In this document: positions 9,884 to 25,735 of the stretch, in pieces
How the letters are laid out: each line of letters starts with the position of its first letter
How positions within the stretch are numbered: position 1 is the stretch's first letter
Source: a virus
Taxonomy: Duplodnaviria; Heunggongvirae; Uroviricota; Caudoviricetes
Reading direction: 5' to 3' (one strand)
Length of the DNA: 25,735 bases
IMG/VR virus record: IMGVR_UViG_2534681655_000008
Position numbers and translations under genes: made by a program
Notes under the pieces: generated by a model
What the model was told of the DNA's origin: nothing
Database searches by the model: none
The model's input: the letters and a program-made list of their open reading frames with translations, nothing else

Positions 9884-10330
9884 TTAAGGTTTTAATTCAT
9901 CAAGACGTTGTTGGATAGTGTTTTTGCTTGCGTTGTCTGTTATAGCCATTTGTTGTACTTGCCCCATTGCCATTTGAGTTTCCATCCACATATCGGCCCA
10001 CACTTTTGTATCGTTATTAACTTGAGCGATAGTAAATCTGACTTTTGATACCGGGGTTGTTGAATAGGCATTTCCGATTAACATTTGTCCAAAAACAGCA
10101 GAGCCGCCTTCCAGTTCTTTACCACATATAACACTGCTGTTATCCGCGTTGTAAATTATCAACCCTCTACTATTGCAGTAATTCACAAGGGCATCTTTGA
10201 CTTTATCTTTTGTCGTATTTTGATAAACCCCCTCAGGTTTTCCTGATTGAGTTTTCTTTATCAATGGTACGGAAGAAGTACAACCTGAAATGATAGTTGC
10301 GCTAAGTAATAGTACAGTCATTTTATTCAT
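9884..10330 (-). CDS. Lipoprotein of unknown function (148 aa), AT-rich moron on the opposite strand
   Basis: Signal peptide MNKMTVLLLSATIISGC with lipobox-like ISGC; visibly AT-rich relative to flanking phage genes; own promoter-like and Shine-Dalgarno-like sequences upstream. Confidence 0.65.
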   Translation of the reverse strand: MNKMTVLLLSATIISGCTSSVPLIKKTQSGKPEGVYQNTTKDKVKDALVNYCNSRGLIIYNADNSSVICGKELEGGSAVFGQMLIGNAYSTTPVSKVRFTIAQVNNDTKVWADMWMETQMAMGQVQQMAITDNASKNTIQQRLDELKP

Positions 10331-16722: not shown

Positions 16723-18230
16723 TGGCTATTCTTGATGATGTGATTGGCGTTTTTTCACCAGGATGGAAAGCGGCAAGGCTGCGTTCCCGTGCGGTGATCC
16801 AGGCTTATGAGGCCGTAAAAACGACGCGGACACACAAAGCCCGGCGGGAAAACCGAACTGCCGACCAGTTAAGCCAGTACGGGGCCGTGTCGTTACGTGA
16901 GCAGGCCCGTTACCTTGATAACAACCACGATCTGGTTATTGGTGTATTTGACAAGCTGGAAGAACGGGTGGTGGGGAAAAACGGGATTATTGTCGAGCCA
17001 CATCCGGTATTACGCAATGGGGCCATTGCCCGTGACCTGGCTGCGGAGATTCGCACCCGATGGAGTGAATGGTCTGTCAGTCCGGAAGTCACCGGGCAGT
17101 TTACCCGTCCGATGCTGGAACGTCTGATGCTGCGTACCTGGCTGCGCGATGGTGAGGTGTTTGCCCAGATGGTTTCCGGGCGCATAAACAGCCTGACGCC
17201 TTCTGCCGGTGTTAATTTCTGGCTGGAGGCGCTCGAGCCGGACTTTATTCCCATGACCAGTGATGATAGCAACAGGCTGAATCAGGGCGTGTTTGTTGAT
17301 GACTGGGGGCGTCCCGAAAAATATCTGGTGTATAAAAGCCGTCCCGTATCCGGGCGGCAGATGGAAACCAAAGAAGTGGATGCAGAGCGAATGCTGCATC
17401 TTAAATTTGTTCGCCGTCTGCACCAGATGCGCGGGACGTCTTTGTTGTCCGGTGTGCTGATCCGCCTCAGTGCCCTGAAAGAGTATGAAGATTCTGAGCT
17501 GACTGCAGCAAGGATCGCCGCTGCTCTGGGGATGTACATCCGGAAAGGCGACGGGCAGAGCTATGAACCGGATGGTAATGGCAGCAAGGAGAATGAACGC
17601 GAGCTTACCATTCAGCCAGGCATTATTTACGACGATCTGAAACCCGGCGAAGAAATCGGAATGGTGAAGTCGGATCGTCCCAATCCTAACCTTGAAACTT
17701 TTCGTAATGGTCAGTTGCGTGCCGTGGCGGCGGGCAGTCGTCTGAGTTTTTCCAGTACGGCACGCAACTATAACGGCACTTACAGCGCCCAGCGTCAGGA
17801 ACTGGTTGAGTCTACTGATGGCTACCTGATCCTGCAGGACTGGTTTATTGGTGCCGTCACCCGCCCGATGTATCGTGCCTGGCTGAAACAGGCTGTGGCA
17901 TCCGGTGTTATCAGGCTACCCCGCGATCTTGACCGTTCTTCACTGTATACCGCGGTGTATTCCGGACCGGTGATGCCGTGGATTGACCCTGTTAAGGAGG
18001 CTGAGGCCTGGAAAATCCAGATTCGTGGTGGAGCGGCGACAGAATCAGACTGGGTACGTGCAGGTGGTCGTAATCCGGATGATGTCAAACGTCGGCGCAA
18101 GGCCGAAATTGATGAAAACCGCAAGCTGGATCTGGTATTTGATACCGATCCGGCCAGTGATAAAGGAGGCAGCAGTGCCGCAACGAAACGACAGGAGCCG
18201 CAGCACACCGACGACCAGTCCGAAGAATAA
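16722..18230 (+). CDS. Portal protein (lambda gpB-like)
   Basis: 502 aa; position after gpW; TGATG start overlap; composition and size typical of lambda-family portals. Confidence 0.8.
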   Translation: MAILDDVIGVFSPGWKAARLRSRAVIQAYEAVKTTRTHKARRENRTADQLSQYGAVSLREQARYLDNNHDLVIGVFDKLEERVVGKNGIIVEPHPVLRNGAIARDLAAEIRTRWSEWSVSPEVTGQFTRPMLERLMLRTWLRDGEVFAQMVSGRINSLTPSAGVNFWLEALEPDFIPMTSDDSNRLNQGVFVDDWGRPEKYLVYKSRPVSGRQMETKEVDAERMLHLKFVRRLHQMRGTSLLSGVLIRLSALKEYEDSELTAARIAAALGMYIRKGDGQSYEPDGNGSKENERELTIQPGIIYDDLKPGEEIGMVKSDRPNPNLETFRNGQLRAVAAGSRLSFSSTARNYNGTYSAQRQELVESTDGYLILQDWFIGAVTRPMYRAWLKQAVASGVIRLPRDLDRSSLYTAVYSGPVMPWIDPVKEAEAWKIQIRGGAATESDWVRAGGRNPDDVKRRRKAEIDENRKLDLVFDTDPASDKGGSSAATKRQEPQHTDDQSEE

Positions 18231-20202
18231 TTCCTGGTTCAGGATGCAGGCTGGTCACCAGAGTGACGCGGATATTTATATTTATGACGAGATTGGTTTC
18301 TGGGGTGTTACAGCGAAGCAGTTTATCAGTGATCTGAATGCACTGGGCGATATCACCCACATTAATCTCCATATTAATTCACCGGGTGGCGATGTCTTTG
18401 AAGGCATCGCCATTTTTAATGCGCTGAAAACACATGGTGCGTCCATTACCGTTTATGTCGACGGTGTGGCGGCGTCAATGGCGTCGGTCATTGCGATGGT
18501 GGGAAACCCGGTCATTATGCCGGAAAACACTTTCATGATGATTCATAAACCATTTGGCTTTACGGGCGGTGATGCGGAGGACATGCGCACCTATGCCGAC
18601 CTGCTCGATAAAGTTGAGGCGGTTCTGTTACCCGCTTATGCACAGAAAACCGGGAAAACCACCGATGAAATTGCTGCCATGCTGGCGGATGAGACCTGGA
18701 TGTCCGGTGCCGAATGTCTGGCACATGGATTTGCTGATCAGGTAACGCCAGCCGTTAAGGCAATGGCATGTATTCAGTCAAAACGTACAGAGGAATTTAA
18801 AAAGATGCCGGAATCCATTCGAAACATGATTACTCCGCCACGCAACAGTGCTCCACGCGTACAGGATGATGAACCTGCAGCCTCCCGGACGCCAGTGCAG
18901 GCAGCAGCACCCGTGGTGGATGAAAACAGTATCCGTGCGCAGGTACTGGCAGAGCAAAAAGCGCGTGTAAACGGTATTAATGATCTGTTTGCCATGTTTG
19001 GCGGGCGTTATCAGACGCTGCAGGCTCAGTGTCTTGCCGATCCTGAATGTTCGCTGGAGCAGGCCCGCGAAAAGCTGTTGAACGAGATGGGGCGCGAGTC
19101 CACGCCATCCAATAAAAATACCCCGGCTCATATTTATGCCGGTAACGGTAATTTTGTGGGGGACGGGATCCGCCAGGCGCTGATGGCGCGTGCCGGATTT
19201 GAAAAAACCGAACGTGATAATGTCTACAACGGGATGACCCTGCGTGAATATGCCCGTATGTCACTGACTGAACGGGGTATTGGGGTTTCCAGTTATAACC
19301 CGATGCAGATGGTCGGTGCGGCGTTCACACACAGTACGTCTGACTTCGGTAATATTCTGCTGGATGTTGCGAACAAAGCCATTCTGCAGGGCTGGGAAGA
19401 TGCTCCTGAAACCTATGAACAGTGGACGCGGAAAGGTCAGTTGTCTGATTTTAAAATTGCCCATCGTGTGGGTATGGGGGGCTTCAGTGCTCTGCGTCAG
19501 GTGCGTGAAGGGGCGGAATATAAATACGTCACCACCGGAGATAAACAGGCCACTATTGCACTGGCGACCTATGGCGAGCTGTTCAGTATCACCCGTCAGG
19601 CCATTATCAATGATGATCTGAATATGCTGACCGATGTCCCGATGAAGCTGGGCCGTGCGGCGAAATCCACCATTGCCGATCTGGTTTATGCCATTCTGAC
19701 GTCTAACCCGAAAATCTCCACAGATAATGTAAGTCTGTTCGATAAAGCGAAACATGCAAACGTACTGGAGAGCGCTGCAATGGACGTGGCATCGCTGGAT
19801 AAAGCCCGCCAGTTGATGCGCGTTCAGAAAGAGGGGGAGCGTCATCTGAATATTCGTCCTGCGTTCGTACTGGTACCGACGGCGATGGAGTCTGTTGCTA
19901 ACCAGGTCATTCGCTCCTCAAGTGTCAAGGGGGCTGACATTAACGCCGGTATTATTAACCCGGTGAAAGATTTTGCGACCGTTATTGCAGAGCCTCGTCT
20001 TGATGATAACAGCCAGACCACCTTCTACCTGGCTGCGTCCAAAGGCTCCGATACGATTGAAGTGGCTTATCTCAACGGTGTGGATACGCCATATATTGAT
20101 CAGATGGAGGGCTTCAGTGTGGATGGCGTGACAACGAAAGTGCGTATTGACGCCGGTGTCGCGCCAGTTGATCACCGCGGTCTGGTGAAATGTACGGCGT
20201 AA
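18175..20202 (+). CDS. Prohead protease (ClpP/S49-like) fused to major capsid protein
   Basis: GTG 18175 with AAGGAGG Shine-Dalgarno at 5-nt spacing (overlaps portal 3' end); N-terminal part SDADIYIYDEIGFWG...INSPGGDVFEGIAIFNAL is ClpP-like; C-terminal 400 aa capsid-like. Confidence 0.7.
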   Translation: MPQRNDRSRSTPTTSPKNNSWFRMQAGHQSDADIYIYDEIGFWGVTAKQFISDLNALGDITHINLHINSPGGDVFEGIAIFNALKTHGASITVYVDGVAASMASVIAMVGNPVIMPENTFMMIHKPFGFTGGDAEDMRTYADLLDKVEAVLLPAYAQKTGKTTDEIAAMLADETWMSGAECLAHGFADQVTPAVKAMACIQSKRTEEFKKMPESIRNMITPPRNSAPRVQDDEPAASRTPVQAAAPVVDENSIRAQVLAEQKARVNGINDLFAMFGGRYQTLQAQCLADPECSLEQAREKLLNEMGRESTPSNKNTPAHIYAGNGNFVGDGIRQALMARAGFEKTERDNVYNGMTLREYARMSLTERGIGVSSYNPMQMVGAAFTHSTSDFGNILLDVANKAILQGWEDAPETYEQWTRKGQLSDFKIAHRVGMGGFSALRQVREGAEYKYVTTGDKQATIALATYGELFSITRQAIINDDLNMLTDVPMKLGRAAKSTIADLVYAILTSNPKISTDNVSLFDKAKHANVLESAAMDVASLDKARQLMRVQKEGERHLNIRPAFVLVPTAMESVANQVIRSSSVKGADINAGIINPVKDFATVIAEPRLDDNSQTTFYLAASKGSDTIEVAYLNGVDTPYIDQMEGFSVDGVTTKVRIDAGVAPVDHRGLVKCTA

Positions 20203-22643: not shown

Positions 22644-22667
22644 GCCCCGGTTATCCGGGGCTTTTTT
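22644..22667 (+). terminator. Rho-independent terminator after the major tail gene (GCCCCGG-TTAT-CCGGGGC followed by T6)
   Basis: Perfect 7-bp GC stem and T-run read from sequence. Confidence 0.75.
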
Positions 22668-22680
22668 GCAGGTGGAGAAC

Positions 22681-23070
22681 ATGATGTTTCTGAAACAGGG
22701 CACGTTTAATTATGAAAAGCAGTCCGTGGTGCTCAGTGAGCTGTCCGGGCTGCAGAGAATTGAATATCTGGCGTTTGTTCAGCAGCGAACGGCAAAGTTT
22801 GATGCCGAAGAGGGAGAACTGCCGGAGGCTGAACGACAGATTGCTTTTCTGCGGATGGGGATGGATATCAATGCCTGGCTGGTTTCCCGCTCACTGTGGA
22901 ATGCGGAACAGTCTCAGGATGTTGAGACGCTTTGCGCATCCGTTATTACAACATGGTCGTATGATGCCCTGGGAGCGGGGGCGGAGATGGTTCTGTCGCT
23001 GAGCGGTATGGGAGCCATTGAGAATGCCGGGGATTTGGAGCATGAGGTGCTGACGCCGGAAAAGTCCTGA
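22681..23070 (+). CDS. Tail assembly chaperone (lambda gpG-like)
   Basis: MMFLKQGTF...VVLSELSGLQRIEYLAF parallels lambda G (MFLKTESFE...VTLSELSALQRIEHLAL); GGTGGAG ribosome-binding site. Confidence 0.8.
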   Translation: MMFLKQGTFNYEKQSVVLSELSGLQRIEYLAFVQQRTAKFDAEEGELPEAERQIAFLRMGMDINAWLVSRSLWNAEQSQDVETLCASVITTWSYDALGAGAEMVLSLSGMGAIENAGDLEHEVLTPEKS

Positions 23071-23306
23071 CGCGGGAAATGCAGTTTGTCATGCGGCTTG
23101 CCCGGGAGTTCCGGCGGGCAGACTGGCGGCGGATGCTGTCGGAAATGTCAGCCACTGAGCTTGGTGAGTGGGGCGATTATTTCCGGATGCAGAGCTTCAG
23201 TGATGTGTGGATGGATGCGCAGTTTGCCTCGCTGAAGGCATTGATCGTGAGAATGGTGTCCGGCAGCAGTGATGCTGCGGTGGCTGATTTCAGCCTTTTA
23301 CCGTAA
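23046..23306 (+). CDS. gpT-like -1 frame (expected to be expressed as a G-T fusion by programmed frameshift), 3' truncated by the IS66-family insertion
   Basis: -1 frame opens at 23046 and overlaps the G 3' end; putative slip site GGAAAAG at 23058-23064; stop TAA 23304-23306 is supplied by the IS terminal GTAAGCG. Confidence 0.55.
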   Translation, partial: GADAGKVLTREMQFVMRLAREFRRADWRRMLSEMSATELGEWGDYFRMQSFSDVWMDAQFASLKALIVRMVSGSSDAAVADFSLLP

Positions 23307-23339
23307 GCGTGCAGCAAGAACCGTATTGACGGGGATGTG

Positions 23340-24877
23340 TTATTCAGTCGGCAGTGCTACGCGCCAGGGGAGCAGTTCGCCGACCCGGTTTATCGGCCAG
23401 TCGGCTATGACGTCAAGGACATAGCGGAGGTAGCTTTCTGGCTCCACTCCGTTCAGTTTGCACGTCCCGATCAGGCTGTACAGCAGCGCTCCCCGCTCTC
23501 CTCCATGATCCGAACCGAAGAACAGGTAGTTTTTGCGGCCCAGACTGACCATCCGCAACGCATTTTCAGCGATGTTATTGTCCGCCTCAGCCCAGCCATC
23601 ATCTGCATAGTACGTCAGCGCCAGCCACTGGTTCAGGGCGTATGCGAACGCTTTCGCCAGTTCTGAGTGTCGCGACAGGGTTTTCATCTTTTCACGCAGC
23701 CAGCTTTCCAGGGATTTCAGCAGCGGTTTCGTTTTCAACTGACGTTCGGCAAGGCGCTGCTCCGCCGTCATTCCCCTTATCTCTGCCTCGATGGCGTACA
23801 GTTCGCCGATCCGTTCAGCGCTTCCTCCGTCAGGGCTGACGGGGTGCGAACGTGCACATCGTGGATTTTACGGCGGGCGTGAGCCCAACAGGCGGCTTCC
23901 GTTATCCGGCCATCCCGGTACAGCTCGTTGAACCCGGCGTATGCATCCGCCTGCAGTACACCACTGAACCCCGCAAGATGGGTCTGCGGATGGATGCCTT
24001 TTCTGTCCGGGCTGTAAGCGAACCACACCGCCGGCGCCAGCGTTGACCCGGCGTTACGGTCGTCACGAACGTAGGTCCATAACCGCCCGGTCTTCGTTTT
24101 CTTATTGCCTGGCAACAGCACCGGGACAGGCGTGTCATCAGCATGGAGCTTACCGTCAGTCAGCACATAGTCCTGAAGCGCTTCTTCCAGCGGTGACAGT
24201 AGCCGGCAGCATGCATCCACCCAGCCCGACAGCAGTGAACGACTCAGCTCCACGCCCTGGCGGCCGTACATTTCAGACTGGCGGTACAGCGGGGTGTGCT
24301 CTGCATACTTTGAGATCAGCACGCGGGCCAGCAGCCCCGGTCCTGCGATACCCCGCTCGATGGGCCGTGAAGGCGCGGGGGCCTGCACGATGGCATCGCA
24401 CTGAGTACAGGCATGCTTTTCACGTACAGTCCGGATAACCCGGAAGGCGCTGCGCATCAACTCCAGCTGTTCGGCGGCATCCTCACCCAGATAGCTCAGC
24501 GAGCCTCCACATTCCGGGCAGCATGACGCTGCCGGCAGCAGCCGTTTTTCATCGCGGGGGAGTGATTCGGGGAACGGTTTGCGGGTGCGGGTTTGACGCA
24601 GCGGGCGCTGCACGGCCGGGTCGTCAACCCGACCGGTAAGGGTATCACTTTCTTTCTGAAGTGCCTTCAGGTCAGCTTCCATCTGTGCGATACGACGGGA
24701 GACTTTTTCCGAGCGGCTGCCGAAGTTCATCCGGCGCAGCTTATCCAGCTGTGCCTGCAGATGGTCTATTTCGCGTTCACGCTCGTTCAGCTTTTCCAGC
24801 AGGGCACGGTTCAGCGCCTCCTGTTCGGCAAGGAGACGTTTCAGTGCATTGATATCGTCAGGAAGTGAGCTGCTCAT
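23340..24877 (-). pseudogene. tnpC: IS66-family transposase TnpC, split into two frames by an apparent 1-nt deletion near 23814-23818
   Basis: N-terminal ORF (24877-23777) and C-terminal ORF (23771-23340) both match IS66 TnpC; the C-terminal frame is open upstream and would read ...[22 protein letters not shown]... as recalled for intact homologues. Confidence 0.7.
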
Positions 24878-24936
24878 ACCGGGTATATTACCAGGCTCAT
24901 TCAGCGTCGACCAGGATAAAGAGGCTTACAACATAG

Positions 24937-25272
24937 TCAGGACGTAAGTAGTCTTTTAGGCTGCCGCCAGTCGATACCTTCCAGCAGCATCGCCAGCTGT
25001 GCCGGTGTGAGGAACACTTTGCCATCCCGGGCTGACGGCCAGGCGAAGCGGCCGCGCTCCAGCCGTTTGGTCAGCAGACACAGTCCATCGCCGGTAGACC
25101 AGAGGAGCTTTACCTGACTGCCATTACGCCCACGGAAGATAAAAACGTGACCTGACATCGGATCGTCTTTCAGCGTCGTCTGCACCTTTGCCGCCAGGCC
25201 GTTGAAGCCGTTTCTCATATCGGTGATGCCAGCGACCAGCCAGATCTTTGTCCCTGATGGTAATGGGATCAA
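24937..25272 (-). CDS. tnpB: IS66-family accessory protein TnpB (Orf2)
   Basis: 111 aa MIPLPSGTKIWLVAGITDMRNGFNGLAAKVQ... matches recalled IS66 Orf2. Confidence 0.85.
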   Translation of the reverse strand: MIPLPSGTKIWLVAGITDMRNGFNGLAAKVQTTLKDDPMSGHVFIFRGRNGSQVKLLWSTGDGLCLLTKRLERGRFAWPSARDGKVFLTPAQLAMLLEGIDWRQPKRLLTS

Positions 25273-25673
25273 CGTTTGAGCTCCCGTATCAGCAGGTTCA
25301 GGATATTTTCGCTGATGGCACCATTCAGACGGAGTGATCCGTGCCGGAACGTCACTTCACAGCTGATATTGAGTGATTCAGGTGTCGCAGCAGCTACAGG
25401 TTGTGACCGGGGGGAGGTTGTAGGGACAACATCTTCGGCATCAAGTGTTATCGGGAGCAGCTCAGGCACGTTGTTTTCTGTTGTTGAAGGAGGACGTAGT
25501 TTTCCTTCGCGCCAGTACTGGCGCCACTTGAACAGCAAATTATCGTTGATCCCATGCTCACGAGCGAGTTGCGCTACGGAGATCTCTGGTCGATGCGAGA
25601 GTTCCACCATTTTGATTTTGAACTCAACGGGATAATTAGGGCTTTTTTTACGCACTGCGGTTAATGATTTCAT
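25269..25673 (-). CDS. tnpA: IS66-family accessory protein TnpA (Orf1)
   Basis: ELSHRPEISVAQLAREHGINDNLLFKWRQ... HTH-like Orf1 signature; start may be at an internal Met (25610). Confidence 0.7.
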   Translation of the reverse strand: MKSLTAVRKKSPNYPVEFKIKMVELSHRPEISVAQLAREHGINDNLLFKWRQYWREGKLRPPSTTENNVPELLPITLDAEDVVPTTSPRSQPVAAATPESLNISCEVTFRHGSLRLNGAISENILNLLIRELKR

Positions 25674-25735
25674 GAATAGCGTCCACCATATTTGGTGTCC
25701 ACTATTCTCTCAGGAATTTCAGGATCTGCCAGACG

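What the first reader, a model, noticed from the sequence alone, without database searches (positions are those of the whole stretch)
23046..23070. gpG / gpT programmed -1 frameshift window with a non-canonical slip site (GGAAAAG)
The T frame (-1 relative to G) opens at 23046 and G terminates at 23070, so a G-T fusion must arise in 23046-23067. Lambda uses G GGA AAG. Here the corresponding heptamer is G GAA AAG (23058-23064): the A-site Lys codon can slip AAG to AAA, but P-site re-pairing GAA to GGA is imperfect. This suggests either lower-efficiency slippage or single-tRNA (Lys) slippage.
Basis: partly seen in the sequence, partly recalled or inferred. Interest (0 to 1): 0.45.

Follow-up and report, generated by a model that had tools for sequence, protein, structure and literature searches.

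The report
Phage tail G-T frameshift site
This is the ordinary ribosomal frameshift signal that lambda-like phages use to make a second, longer tail-assembly chaperone; its "odd" heptamer GGAAAAG is the commonest version in this gene family, is already annotated in phage N15, and sits here in a prophage whose T gene is cut by an insertion sequence.

Summary
G (22684-23070) ends at TGA 23068-70. The -1 (T) frame opens at 23046. The only slip-prone sequence in the 22-nt overlap is G GAA AAG (23058-23064).

Homology is firm: TIGR01674 phage_lambda_G and TIGR01715 phage_lam_T both pass their cut-offs.

The heptamer is not a local oddity:
- It is identical in the isolated or inducible phages Ayreon, mEp460, cdtI, Gifsy-1/-2 and Fels-1.
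- It lies at exactly the position of lambda's G GGA AAG.
- The RefSeq record of phage N15 annotates GGAAAAG as the "slippery sequence for -1 translational frameshift".
- In a scan of viral contigs that did not select on the heptamer, it was the most frequent form: 61 GGAAAAG, 47 GGGAAAG, 7 AAAAAAG of 120.

The first G sits at a four-fold degenerate codon position yet is G in 61 of 62 contigs. This favours two-tRNA slippage (tRNA-Glu GAA to GGA through a second-position G·U pair, tRNA-Lys AAG to AAA) over Lys-only slippage.

No conserved downstream RNA structure was found. An SD-like GAGGTG lies 8 nt upstream but is not general.

In this window an IS66-family element truncates T at 23303/23304. 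The signal is intact, but its product here would be crippled.

Verdict: real, ordinary, already known.

The parts
22644..22667 (+). Rho-independent terminator-like hairpin plus T-run between the tail tube gene V and G
   Evidence: GCCCCGG-TTAT-CCGGGGC followed by TTTTTT. The same site is annotated as a terminator in Ayreon, mEp460 and N15.
22684..23070 (+). Gene G, tail assembly chaperone (128 aa from the second ATG; an ATG also lies at 22681); stop TGA 23068-23070
   Evidence: TIGR01674 phage_lambda_G 188.6 bits (cut-off 74.45) and PF06894 133 bits. Translation. PGAP annotates the 387-nt version in relatives.
23043..23045 (+). Last stop codon (TGA) of the -1 frame; the T frame is open from 23046
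   Evidence: Translation of the -1 frame.
23044..23049 (+). SD-like GAGGTG, complementary to CACCUC of the 16S rRNA 3' end, 8 nt upstream of the heptamer (GAGG core 10 nt upstream); a possible auxiliary stimulator
   Evidence: Duplex with the anti-SD is -6.9 kcal/mol. An SD-like element at about -16 to -9 is present across the window/Gifsy/Fels/Citrobacter super-clade and in roughly 10 of 26 GGAAAAG context clusters. It is absent in N15 and in all GGGAAAG lineages. Inferred, not shown.
23058..23064 (+). Slip heptamer G GAA AAG (P-site GAA, A-site AAG in the G frame; GGA AAA in the -1 frame)
   Evidence: Sequence. Identical heptamer at the homologous position in Ayreon, mEp460, Gifsy-1/-2, Fels-1 and N15, and in six further enterobacterial genera. 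Annotated as the slippery sequence in N15. Columns invariant.
23064..23306 (+). T-frame segment of the predicted G-T fusion (VLTREMQFVMRLAREFRR...), truncated; its stop TAA 23304-23306 is created by the IS end
   Evidence: TIGR01715 phage_lam_T 95.4 bits (cut-off 77.35), covering only profile positions 1-75 of 111. Intact relatives continue for 102 nt. The fusion is 207 aa here against 242 aa in relatives.
23304..25735 (-). IS66-family (ISEc22-like) insertion sequence that interrupts T and runs to the end of the window
   Evidence: Homology with Ayreon/mEp460 breaks at 23304, and (G)TAAGCG... begins there. Hits are annotated 'IS66-like element ISEc22 family transposase'. ORFs tnpA 25269-25673, tnpB 24937-25272 and tnpC split into 23777-24877 and 23340-23771.

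Best explanation
This is the programmed -1 ribosomal frameshift site of a lambda-type tail assembly chaperone pair.

How it works:
- Most ribosomes translate G to TGA 23068-70.
- A minority, with tRNA-Glu on GAA in the P site and tRNA-Lys on AAG in the A site, slip back one base on G GAA AAG (23058-64).
- tRNA-Lys re-pairs perfectly with AAA.
- tRNA-Glu (anticodon xUUC) re-pairs with GGA through two Watson-Crick pairs and a second-position G·U pair.
- Translation then continues at GTC 23064 in the T frame, giving the fusion ...TPEK-VLTRE...

In intact relatives this fusion is the GT chaperone. In lambda, the GT chaperone links the tape measure protein to the tail tube protein.

GGAAAAG and GGGAAAG differ by a single base at one homologous position, and AAAAAAG occurs at that same position in other members. 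GGAAAAG is the most common of the three in this family.

What is shown: homology, frame arrangement, positional identity with lambda's and N15's sites, and strong conservation, including the synonymous first G. What is inferred: that slippage happens here, that both tRNAs slip, and its rate.

In this genome the signal is intact, but T is cut by an IS66-family insertion 240 nt downstream and no tape measure gene follows within the window. The local product would be a truncated, probably non-functional GT.
For: - **Family membership.** G and T match their NCBIfam equivalog models and Pfam families. The lambda-type tail tube gene lies directly upstream.
- **Frame geometry.**
- **Same junction in known phages.** CCGGAAAAGTCCTGA occurs in Ayreon, phi458, cdtI and mEp460, and in 1848 of 5426 complete E. 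coli genomes. At 67-71% nucleotide identity it occurs in Gifsy-1, Gifsy-2 and Fels-1.
- **Homologous position.** The alignment downstream of the heptamer is gapless across the family, so the position is homologous to lambda's G GGA AAG.
- **Prior annotation.** N15 record NC_001901 marks 10027-10033 (GGAAAAG) as 'slippery sequence for -1 translational frameshift'.
- **Heptamer-agnostic sample of viral contigs.** GGAAAAG 61, GGGAAAG 47, AAAAAAG 7 and four singletons of 120.
- **Tree.** GGGAAAG falls in two separate clades among GGAAAAG clades.
- **First G.** It is the third base of CCG, GCG, GTG, ACG or CTG, all four-fold degenerate. It is G in 61 of 62 NGAAAAG contigs and in 26 diverged context clusters, against a background G3 frequency of 0.38. 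It lies upstream of the first translated T-frame codon, so coding in T cannot explain it.
- **Published precedent.** X_XX = G_GA or G_GU slip sites are recognised (T7 gene 10, several RNA viruses; PMC5009743).
Against: - No trans-frame protein has been observed for this sequence.
- In a reconstituted E. coli system AUG GAA AAG was chosen as a sequence 'unfavorable for slippage' and gave mainly 0-frame product (PMC6924986).
- The A_AAG tetramer alone is barely above background without a stimulator (0.147% against 0.112%; PMC4066793).
- I found no conserved downstream structure: z = -0.63, covariation term +1.56.
- The SD-like element is absent from many GGAAAAG lineages, N15 included.
- One contig has AGAAAAG at the site.
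- Public annotation, PGAP included, lists T as a separate ATG-initiated gene.
Confidence: 0.82

Rival explanations
1. Lys-only slippage. Only the A-site tRNA-Lys slips on A_AAG (23061-23064). The P-site tRNA-Glu does not re-pair productively, and the GG in front is irrelevant.
For: A_AAG is by far the most shift-prone tetramer in E. coli, reaching 5.6% with a strong pseudoknot (PMC4066793). [quoted passage not shown] B. subtilis cdd shifts on CGA AAG (reference listed). One contig carries AGAAAAG at this position.
Against: The first G of the heptamer sits at a four-fold degenerate third codon position of five different codon families. It is G in 61 of 62 contigs and in 26 diverged context clusters, against a background of 0.38. 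Nothing but P-site re-pairing to GGA explains that. Without a stimulator the tetramer is at background level, and no conserved stimulator was found.
Confidence: 0.15
2. No frameshift. T is made as a free protein from its own start codon ATG 23079, as GenBank and PGAP annotate it in relatives.
For: An ATG lies at 23079, and separate T CDSs are annotated in mEp460, Ayreon and RefSeq E. coli genomes.
Against: The ATG is not conserved: Gifsy-1 and Fels-1 have CTG there, Gifsy-2 has CTT, and lambda and N15 have CTG. The T-family profile TIGR01715 already aligns two residues upstream of that Met. The -1 overlap and the heptamer are conserved throughout the family. In lambda, GT is made by frameshifting, and the G:GT ratio of about 30:1 is reported as crucial for tail assembly (review PMC5009743; about 4% shifting per PMC3296357).
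Confidence: 0.03
3. Transcriptional slippage. RNA polymerase stutters on the A run and makes an mRNA with one base fewer or more.
For: None here beyond the presence of AAAA.
Against: The run is only four A's. By established knowledge, known bacterial transcriptional slippage sites need runs of about seven or more identical bases. The conserved G at both ends of the heptamer fits ribosomal slippage instead.
Confidence: 0.01

Closest known systems
Phage N15 genes 14/15 (lambda G/T homologues)
   Same: Identical heptamer GGAAAAG at the homologous position, annotated in NC_001901 as the -1 slippery sequence. Same V - terminator - G - T - tape measure order. G is homologous (30% identity, E 7e-10).
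   Different: In N15 the G stop is five codons after the heptamer, against one codon here. N15 has no SD-like element upstream. Its T and tape measure genes are intact.
Phage lambda G-T frameshift (G GGA AAG)
   Same: Same gene families, same position in a gapless alignment, same A-site AAG to AAA slip, and no required strong RNA structure. About 4% shifting gives a high G:GT ratio (PMC3296357; PMC5009743).
   Different: Position 3 is G rather than A. In lambda the P-site tRNA is tRNA-Gly re-pairing GGA to GGG (third-position G·U). Here it is tRNA-Glu re-pairing GAA to GGA (second-position G·U). The G-frame residue is Gly rather than Glu.
Phage T7 gene 10 frameshift (G GUU UUC) and G_GA-type sites of RNA viruses
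   Same: Heptamers in which X_XX is not a homopolymer (G_GU, G_GA), so P-site re-pairing is imperfect yet still used (review PMC5009743).
   Different: Unrelated genes. T7 depends on a distant 3' element. The G_GA cases cited are decoded by eukaryotic ribosomes.
E. coli dnaX (A AAA AAG with an upstream SD-like element) and B. subtilis cdd (CGA AAG)
   Same: A-site AAG to AAA slippage by tRNA-Lys. In dnaX, by established knowledge, the SD-like element lies about 10 nt upstream. Here a GAGG core lies 10 nt upstream of the heptamer.
   Different: dnaX also needs a downstream stem-loop, and none is conserved here. The SD-like element is not conserved across GGAAAAG lineages.

Membership tests
Lambda-type G/GT tail assembly chaperone with -1 frameshift | Upstream ORF is a lambda G homologue | tested here: met
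   TIGR01674 (equivalog) 188.6 bits against cut-off 74.45; PF06894 133.3 bits.
Lambda-type G/GT tail assembly chaperone with -1 frameshift | The -1 frame overlapping the 3' end of G encodes a lambda T homologue | tested here: met
   TIGR01715 95.4 bits against cut-off 77.35; PF06223 37.9 bits. Only profile positions 1-75 of 111 are present because of the IS insertion.
Lambda-type G/GT tail assembly chaperone with -1 frameshift | Located between the major tail (tube) gene and the tape measure gene | tested here: inconclusive
   The tail tube gene (PF16461 plus Big_2) lies directly upstream. Downstream, an IS66-family element replaces the rest of T and runs to the window end, so no tape measure gene is visible. 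Intact relatives have it.
Lambda-type G/GT tail assembly chaperone with -1 frameshift | Slip-prone heptamer inside the G/T overlap at the family's conserved position | tested here: met
   GGAAAAG lies 27 nt upstream of the conserved T motif, as in N15 (annotated slip site), and at the position of lambda's GGGAAAG.
Lambda-type G/GT tail assembly chaperone with -1 frameshift | A trans-frame G-T protein is actually produced at a low percentage | not testable with these tools
   Needs a reporter assay or mass spectrometry.
Canonical X_XXY_YYZ tandem-slippage heptamer | The first three bases are identical, so the P-site tRNA re-pairs cognately | tested here: not met
   XXX = GGA. GAA to GGA re-pairing gives a second-position G·U pair.
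dnaX-type stimulated -1 frameshift | SD-like element about 10 nt upstream and a stem-loop a few nt downstream | tested here: inconclusive
   GAGGTG is present 8 nt upstream (-6.9 kcal/mol) but is not conserved family-wide. No significant or covarying downstream structure was found.

The most novel reading that the evidence does not exclude
G GAA AAG, which in vitro work classes as unfavourable for slippage, may be the ancestral and preferred G-T heptamer of lambda-type siphophages. It would work by genuine two-tRNA slippage that tolerates a second-position U35·G pair of tRNA-Glu in the P site. Both slipping tRNAs (Glu and Lys) carry mnm5s2U34. The G:GT ratio of these phages would then be even more tightly coupled to the host's 2-thiouridine (Tus/MnmA) status than lambda's. 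SD-like elements would top up the rate in some clades, such as this one.
Probability: 0.3. Interest if true: 0.45.

Novelty: already known. Interest (0 to 1): 0.2.

Why it matters
It matters little for discovery. The G-T frameshift is a textbook recoding event. This heptamer is already marked as the slip site in phage N15, and the same junction is present in about a third of complete E. coli genomes.

Two practical points remain:
1. Automated annotation (PGAP, many GenBank records) still lists T of this clade as a free-standing gene rather than as a frameshift fusion. Pipelines that search only for X_XXY_YYZ patterns will miss the commonest heptamer of the family.
2. Biochemical studies use G GAA AAG as a poorly slippery control, while nature uses it widely for a dosage-critical protein. 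An in vivo measurement of its efficiency and of its dependence on P-site pairing would be informative for frameshift rules in bacteria.

Tried and rejected
- **Decayed lambda heptamer.** I first suspected a G-to-A mutation of lambda's heptamer in a decaying prophage, because T is cut by an IS. Rejected: isolated phages and distant relatives share GGAAAAG.
- **Downstream stimulatory RNA structure.** The 100 nt after the site fold no better than shuffles (z = -0.63). A five-phage alignment gives an unfavourable covariation term (+1.56).
- **Nearby stop codon as a conserved stimulator.** Rejected: the stop is one codon away in some clades and five in others.
- **Upstream SD-like stimulator.** Present in this clade and in about 10 of 26 GGAAAAG context clusters, absent in N15 and in all GGGAAAG lineages. 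Suggestive only: the region is rich in acidic codons and the lineages are not independent.
- **Literature.** Searches for GGAAAAG with 'frameshift' and for 'G GAA AAG' found no paper describing it as a natural slip site, only its use as an unfavourable control. Xu, Hendrix and Duda 2004 is not held, so I could not check whether it lists this heptamer.
- **Genome of origin.** A search for the phage/IS junction found no complete E. coli genome covering it.
- **First viral-contig scan.** The scan with the window's G protein returned only near-identical loci. Diversity came from the genome-contig scan, from scans seeded with distant G proteins, and from the motif scan.

Full report
**1. Observation**

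The sequence is as described. In the G frame the window reads CAT GAG GTG CTG ACG CCG GAA AAG TCC TGA, with the stop at 23068-23070. In the -1 frame a TGA lies at 23043-23045, and the frame is then open from 23046 (GGT GCT GAC GCC GGA AAA GTC CTG ACG ...) to 23306.

GGAAAAG occupies 23058-23064, with GAA and AAG as G-frame codons. Going through the seven G-frame codons of the overlap, no other codon pair allows -1 re-pairing. The bare heptamer is common: 9 copies in the window against 3.8 +/- 2.2 expected. Its meaning therefore rests on frame, position and conservation.

**2. What the genes are**

- The predicted fusion matches NCBIfam TIGR01674 phage_lambda_G (188.6 bits, cut-off 74.45) and TIGR01715 phage_lam_T (95.4 bits, cut-off 77.35). 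It also matches Pfam PF06894 and PF06223.
- The gene upstream is a lambda-type tail tube protein with a C-terminal Big_2 domain.
- A strong terminator-like hairpin separates it from G.
- The T profile is matched only over positions 1-75 of 111.
- Alignment with phages Ayreon and mEp460 shows that homology stops at 23303/23304. There (G)TAAGCG..., the end of an IS66-family (ISEc22-like) element, begins and supplies the TAA that closes the T frame.
- Intact relatives continue T for 102 nt and then encode the tape measure protein. In the window the IS runs to the end.
- The local fusion would be 207 aa instead of 242 aa.

**3. Is the heptamer a local accident?**

No.
- The 665-nt G-T region is 97-99% identical in the phages Ayreon, phi458, cdtI and mEp460. 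It occurs in 1848 of 5426 complete E. coli genomes. All of these that I read carry CCGGAAAAGTCCTGA.
- At only 67-71% nucleotide identity, Gifsy-1, Gifsy-2 and Fels-1 have the same CCGGAAAAG(T/C)CCTGA, although the sequence just upstream is unalignable.
- A scan of one genome per species found GGAAAAG at this position in Citrobacter, Superficieibacter, Atlantibacter, Phytobacter and Pluralibacter. It found GGGAAAG in lambda-like prophages and in Serratia/Symbiopectobacterium. Scans seeded with the distant G proteins added more GGAAAAG lineages.
- Downstream of the heptamer the family aligns without gaps, so the position is strictly homologous to lambda's G GGA AAG.

**4. A census that does not select on the heptamer**

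I then read the heptamer in each.

| Heptamer | Contigs | Unique contexts (of 77) |
|---|---|---|
| GGAAAAG | 61 | 41 |
| GGGAAAG | 47 | 28, mostly near-identical lambda-like |
| AAAAAAG | 7 | 4 |
| AGAAAAG, AGGAAAG, GGCAAAA, CGCAAAG | 1 each | 1 each |

On a neighbour-joining tree of fusion proteins, GGGAAAG sits in two separate clades among GGAAAAG clades. GGAAAAG and GGGAAAG differ by one base at this position, and the 'non-canonical' form is the plurality. One caveat: three of my seeded scans used GGAAAAG lineages as queries, so the tree over-samples them. The census does not have that bias.

**5. Already known**

The RefSeq record of phage N15 (NC_001901) carries a misc_feature 'slippery sequence for -1 translational frameshift' at 10027-10033. 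That sequence is GGAAAAG, between gene 14 (the G homologue, 30% identical to the window's G) and gene 15. This settles novelty.

**6. Mechanism**

- *Shown.* Conservation is confined to the heptamer. Across 15 clade representatives, positions 1, 2 and 4-7 are invariant and position 3 is A or G, while the flanking upstream columns are close to random.
- *Key inference.* The first G is the third base of CCG, GCG, GTG, ACG or CTG, all four-fold degenerate. It lies upstream of the first T-frame codon that would be translated, so no protein constraint acts on it. Yet it is G in 61 of 62 NGAAAAG contigs and in all 26 diverged context clusters, against a background G3 frequency of 0.38 in the same genes. 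That fits P-site re-pairing of tRNA-Glu from GAA to GGA (C36:G, U35·G, U34:A) together with A-site re-pairing of tRNA-Lys from AAG to AAA. This is tandem slippage with one G·U pair, as in lambda, where the G·U pair falls at the third position.
- *Published precedent.* The Atkins et al. review lists such intermediates: G_GU in T7 gene 10 and G_GA in several RNA viruses (PMC5009743).
- *Against a high rate.* Peng et al. used AUG GAA AAG as a sequence unfavourable for slippage and saw mainly 0-frame product in vitro (PMC6924986). Sharma et al. found the A_AAG tetramer barely above background without a stimulator (PMC4066793).

**7. Stimulators**

- The 100 nt downstream fold no better than shuffles (z = -0.63), and a five-phage alignment gives no covariation support.
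- The G stop is one codon after the heptamer in some clades and five in others.
- Upstream, the window has GAGGTG (23044-23049), complementary to the 16S 3' end. Its GAGG core lies 10 nt from the heptamer, the dnaX spacing.
- An SD-like element is present throughout the window/Gifsy/Fels/Citrobacter super-clade and in about 10 of 26 GGAAAAG clusters. It is absent in N15 and in all GGGAAAG lineages.
- I treat it as a possible auxiliary element of this clade, not as part of the general mechanism.

**8. Rivals**

- Independent initiation of T at ATG 23079, as PGAP and GenBank annotate it, is unlikely. That ATG is not conserved in Gifsy-1/-2, Fels-1, lambda or N15, and the T profile starts upstream of it.
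- Lys-only slippage is disfavoured by the conserved first G.
- Transcriptional slippage is implausible on four A's.

**9. Verdict**

The finding is real and correctly read, but ordinary. It is a standard lambda-family G-T frameshift site with the family's commonest heptamer, already annotated in N15. Here it lies in a prophage whose T gene has been broken by an insertion sequence. The remaining open point is quantitative: how efficient G GAA AAG is in vivo, and how far it depends on P-site pairing, tRNA thiolation (PMC3296357) and the SD-like element.

Noticed in passing
window 23303-25735 (minus strand): An IS66-family (ISEc22-like) element is inserted in gene T and runs to the window end. 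Its tnpC is split into two ORFs in different frames (23777-24877 and 23340-23771), so the transposase gene itself looks frameshifted. No complete E. coli genome in the collection carries this phage/IS junction.
   Followed up: partly
window 22644-22667: A strong terminator-like hairpin (7 G-C pairs plus T6) lies between the tail tube gene and G. It is annotated as a terminator at the same place in Ayreon, mEp460 and N15. It may set the V:G expression ratio.
   Followed up: partly
window 23281-23299: The hairpin GGCTGA-TT-TCAGCC followed by TTTTA lies inside T. mEp460 annotates a rho-independent terminator at the equivalent position. The IS insertion point is about 5 nt downstream of it.
   Followed up: no
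L182, L193, L255, L265 (viral contigs), heptamer 27 nt upstream of the T motif: A third heptamer, A AAA AAG (the dnaX type), occupies exactly the same position in some members of the G/T family (7 of 120 contigs).
   Followed up: partly
L222 and L223 (viral contigs): There are two exceptions to the conserved first G: AGAAAAG in one contig, and AGGAAAG in an otherwise lambda-like contig. They may be defective prophages or tolerated variants. GGCAAAA (L229) and CGCAAAG (L260) at the position suggest lineages whose slip site lies elsewhere.
   Followed up: no
L105-L117 (genome contigs): Assemblies of unrelated organisms hold short or low-coverage contigs (coverage about 1x where the contig names give it). 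Examples are Kitasatospora, Neobacillus, Oceanobacillus, Leeuwenhoekiella, Shewanella, Pseudoxanthomonas and Psychrobacter. These contigs give the same tblastn score as lambda-like G, and in L105 and L106 (the two I read) the G-T junction is identical to phage lambda. Most likely this is lambda control DNA contaminating the assemblies.
   Followed up: partly
window 17983-20202: One long ORF combines a ClpP-like protease/scaffold region with what looks like a capsid-protein C-terminal part. Relatives annotate it as a 'ClpP protease-like/scaffold protein'. I did not examine it further.
   Followed up: no
L147 (E. coli LD93-1), L001, L002: RefSeq/PGAP and GenBank records of this clade annotate T as a separate ATG-initiated CDS, with no ribosomal-slippage join. 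The frameshift product is therefore missing from protein databases for the most common G-T type in E. coli.
   Followed up: yes
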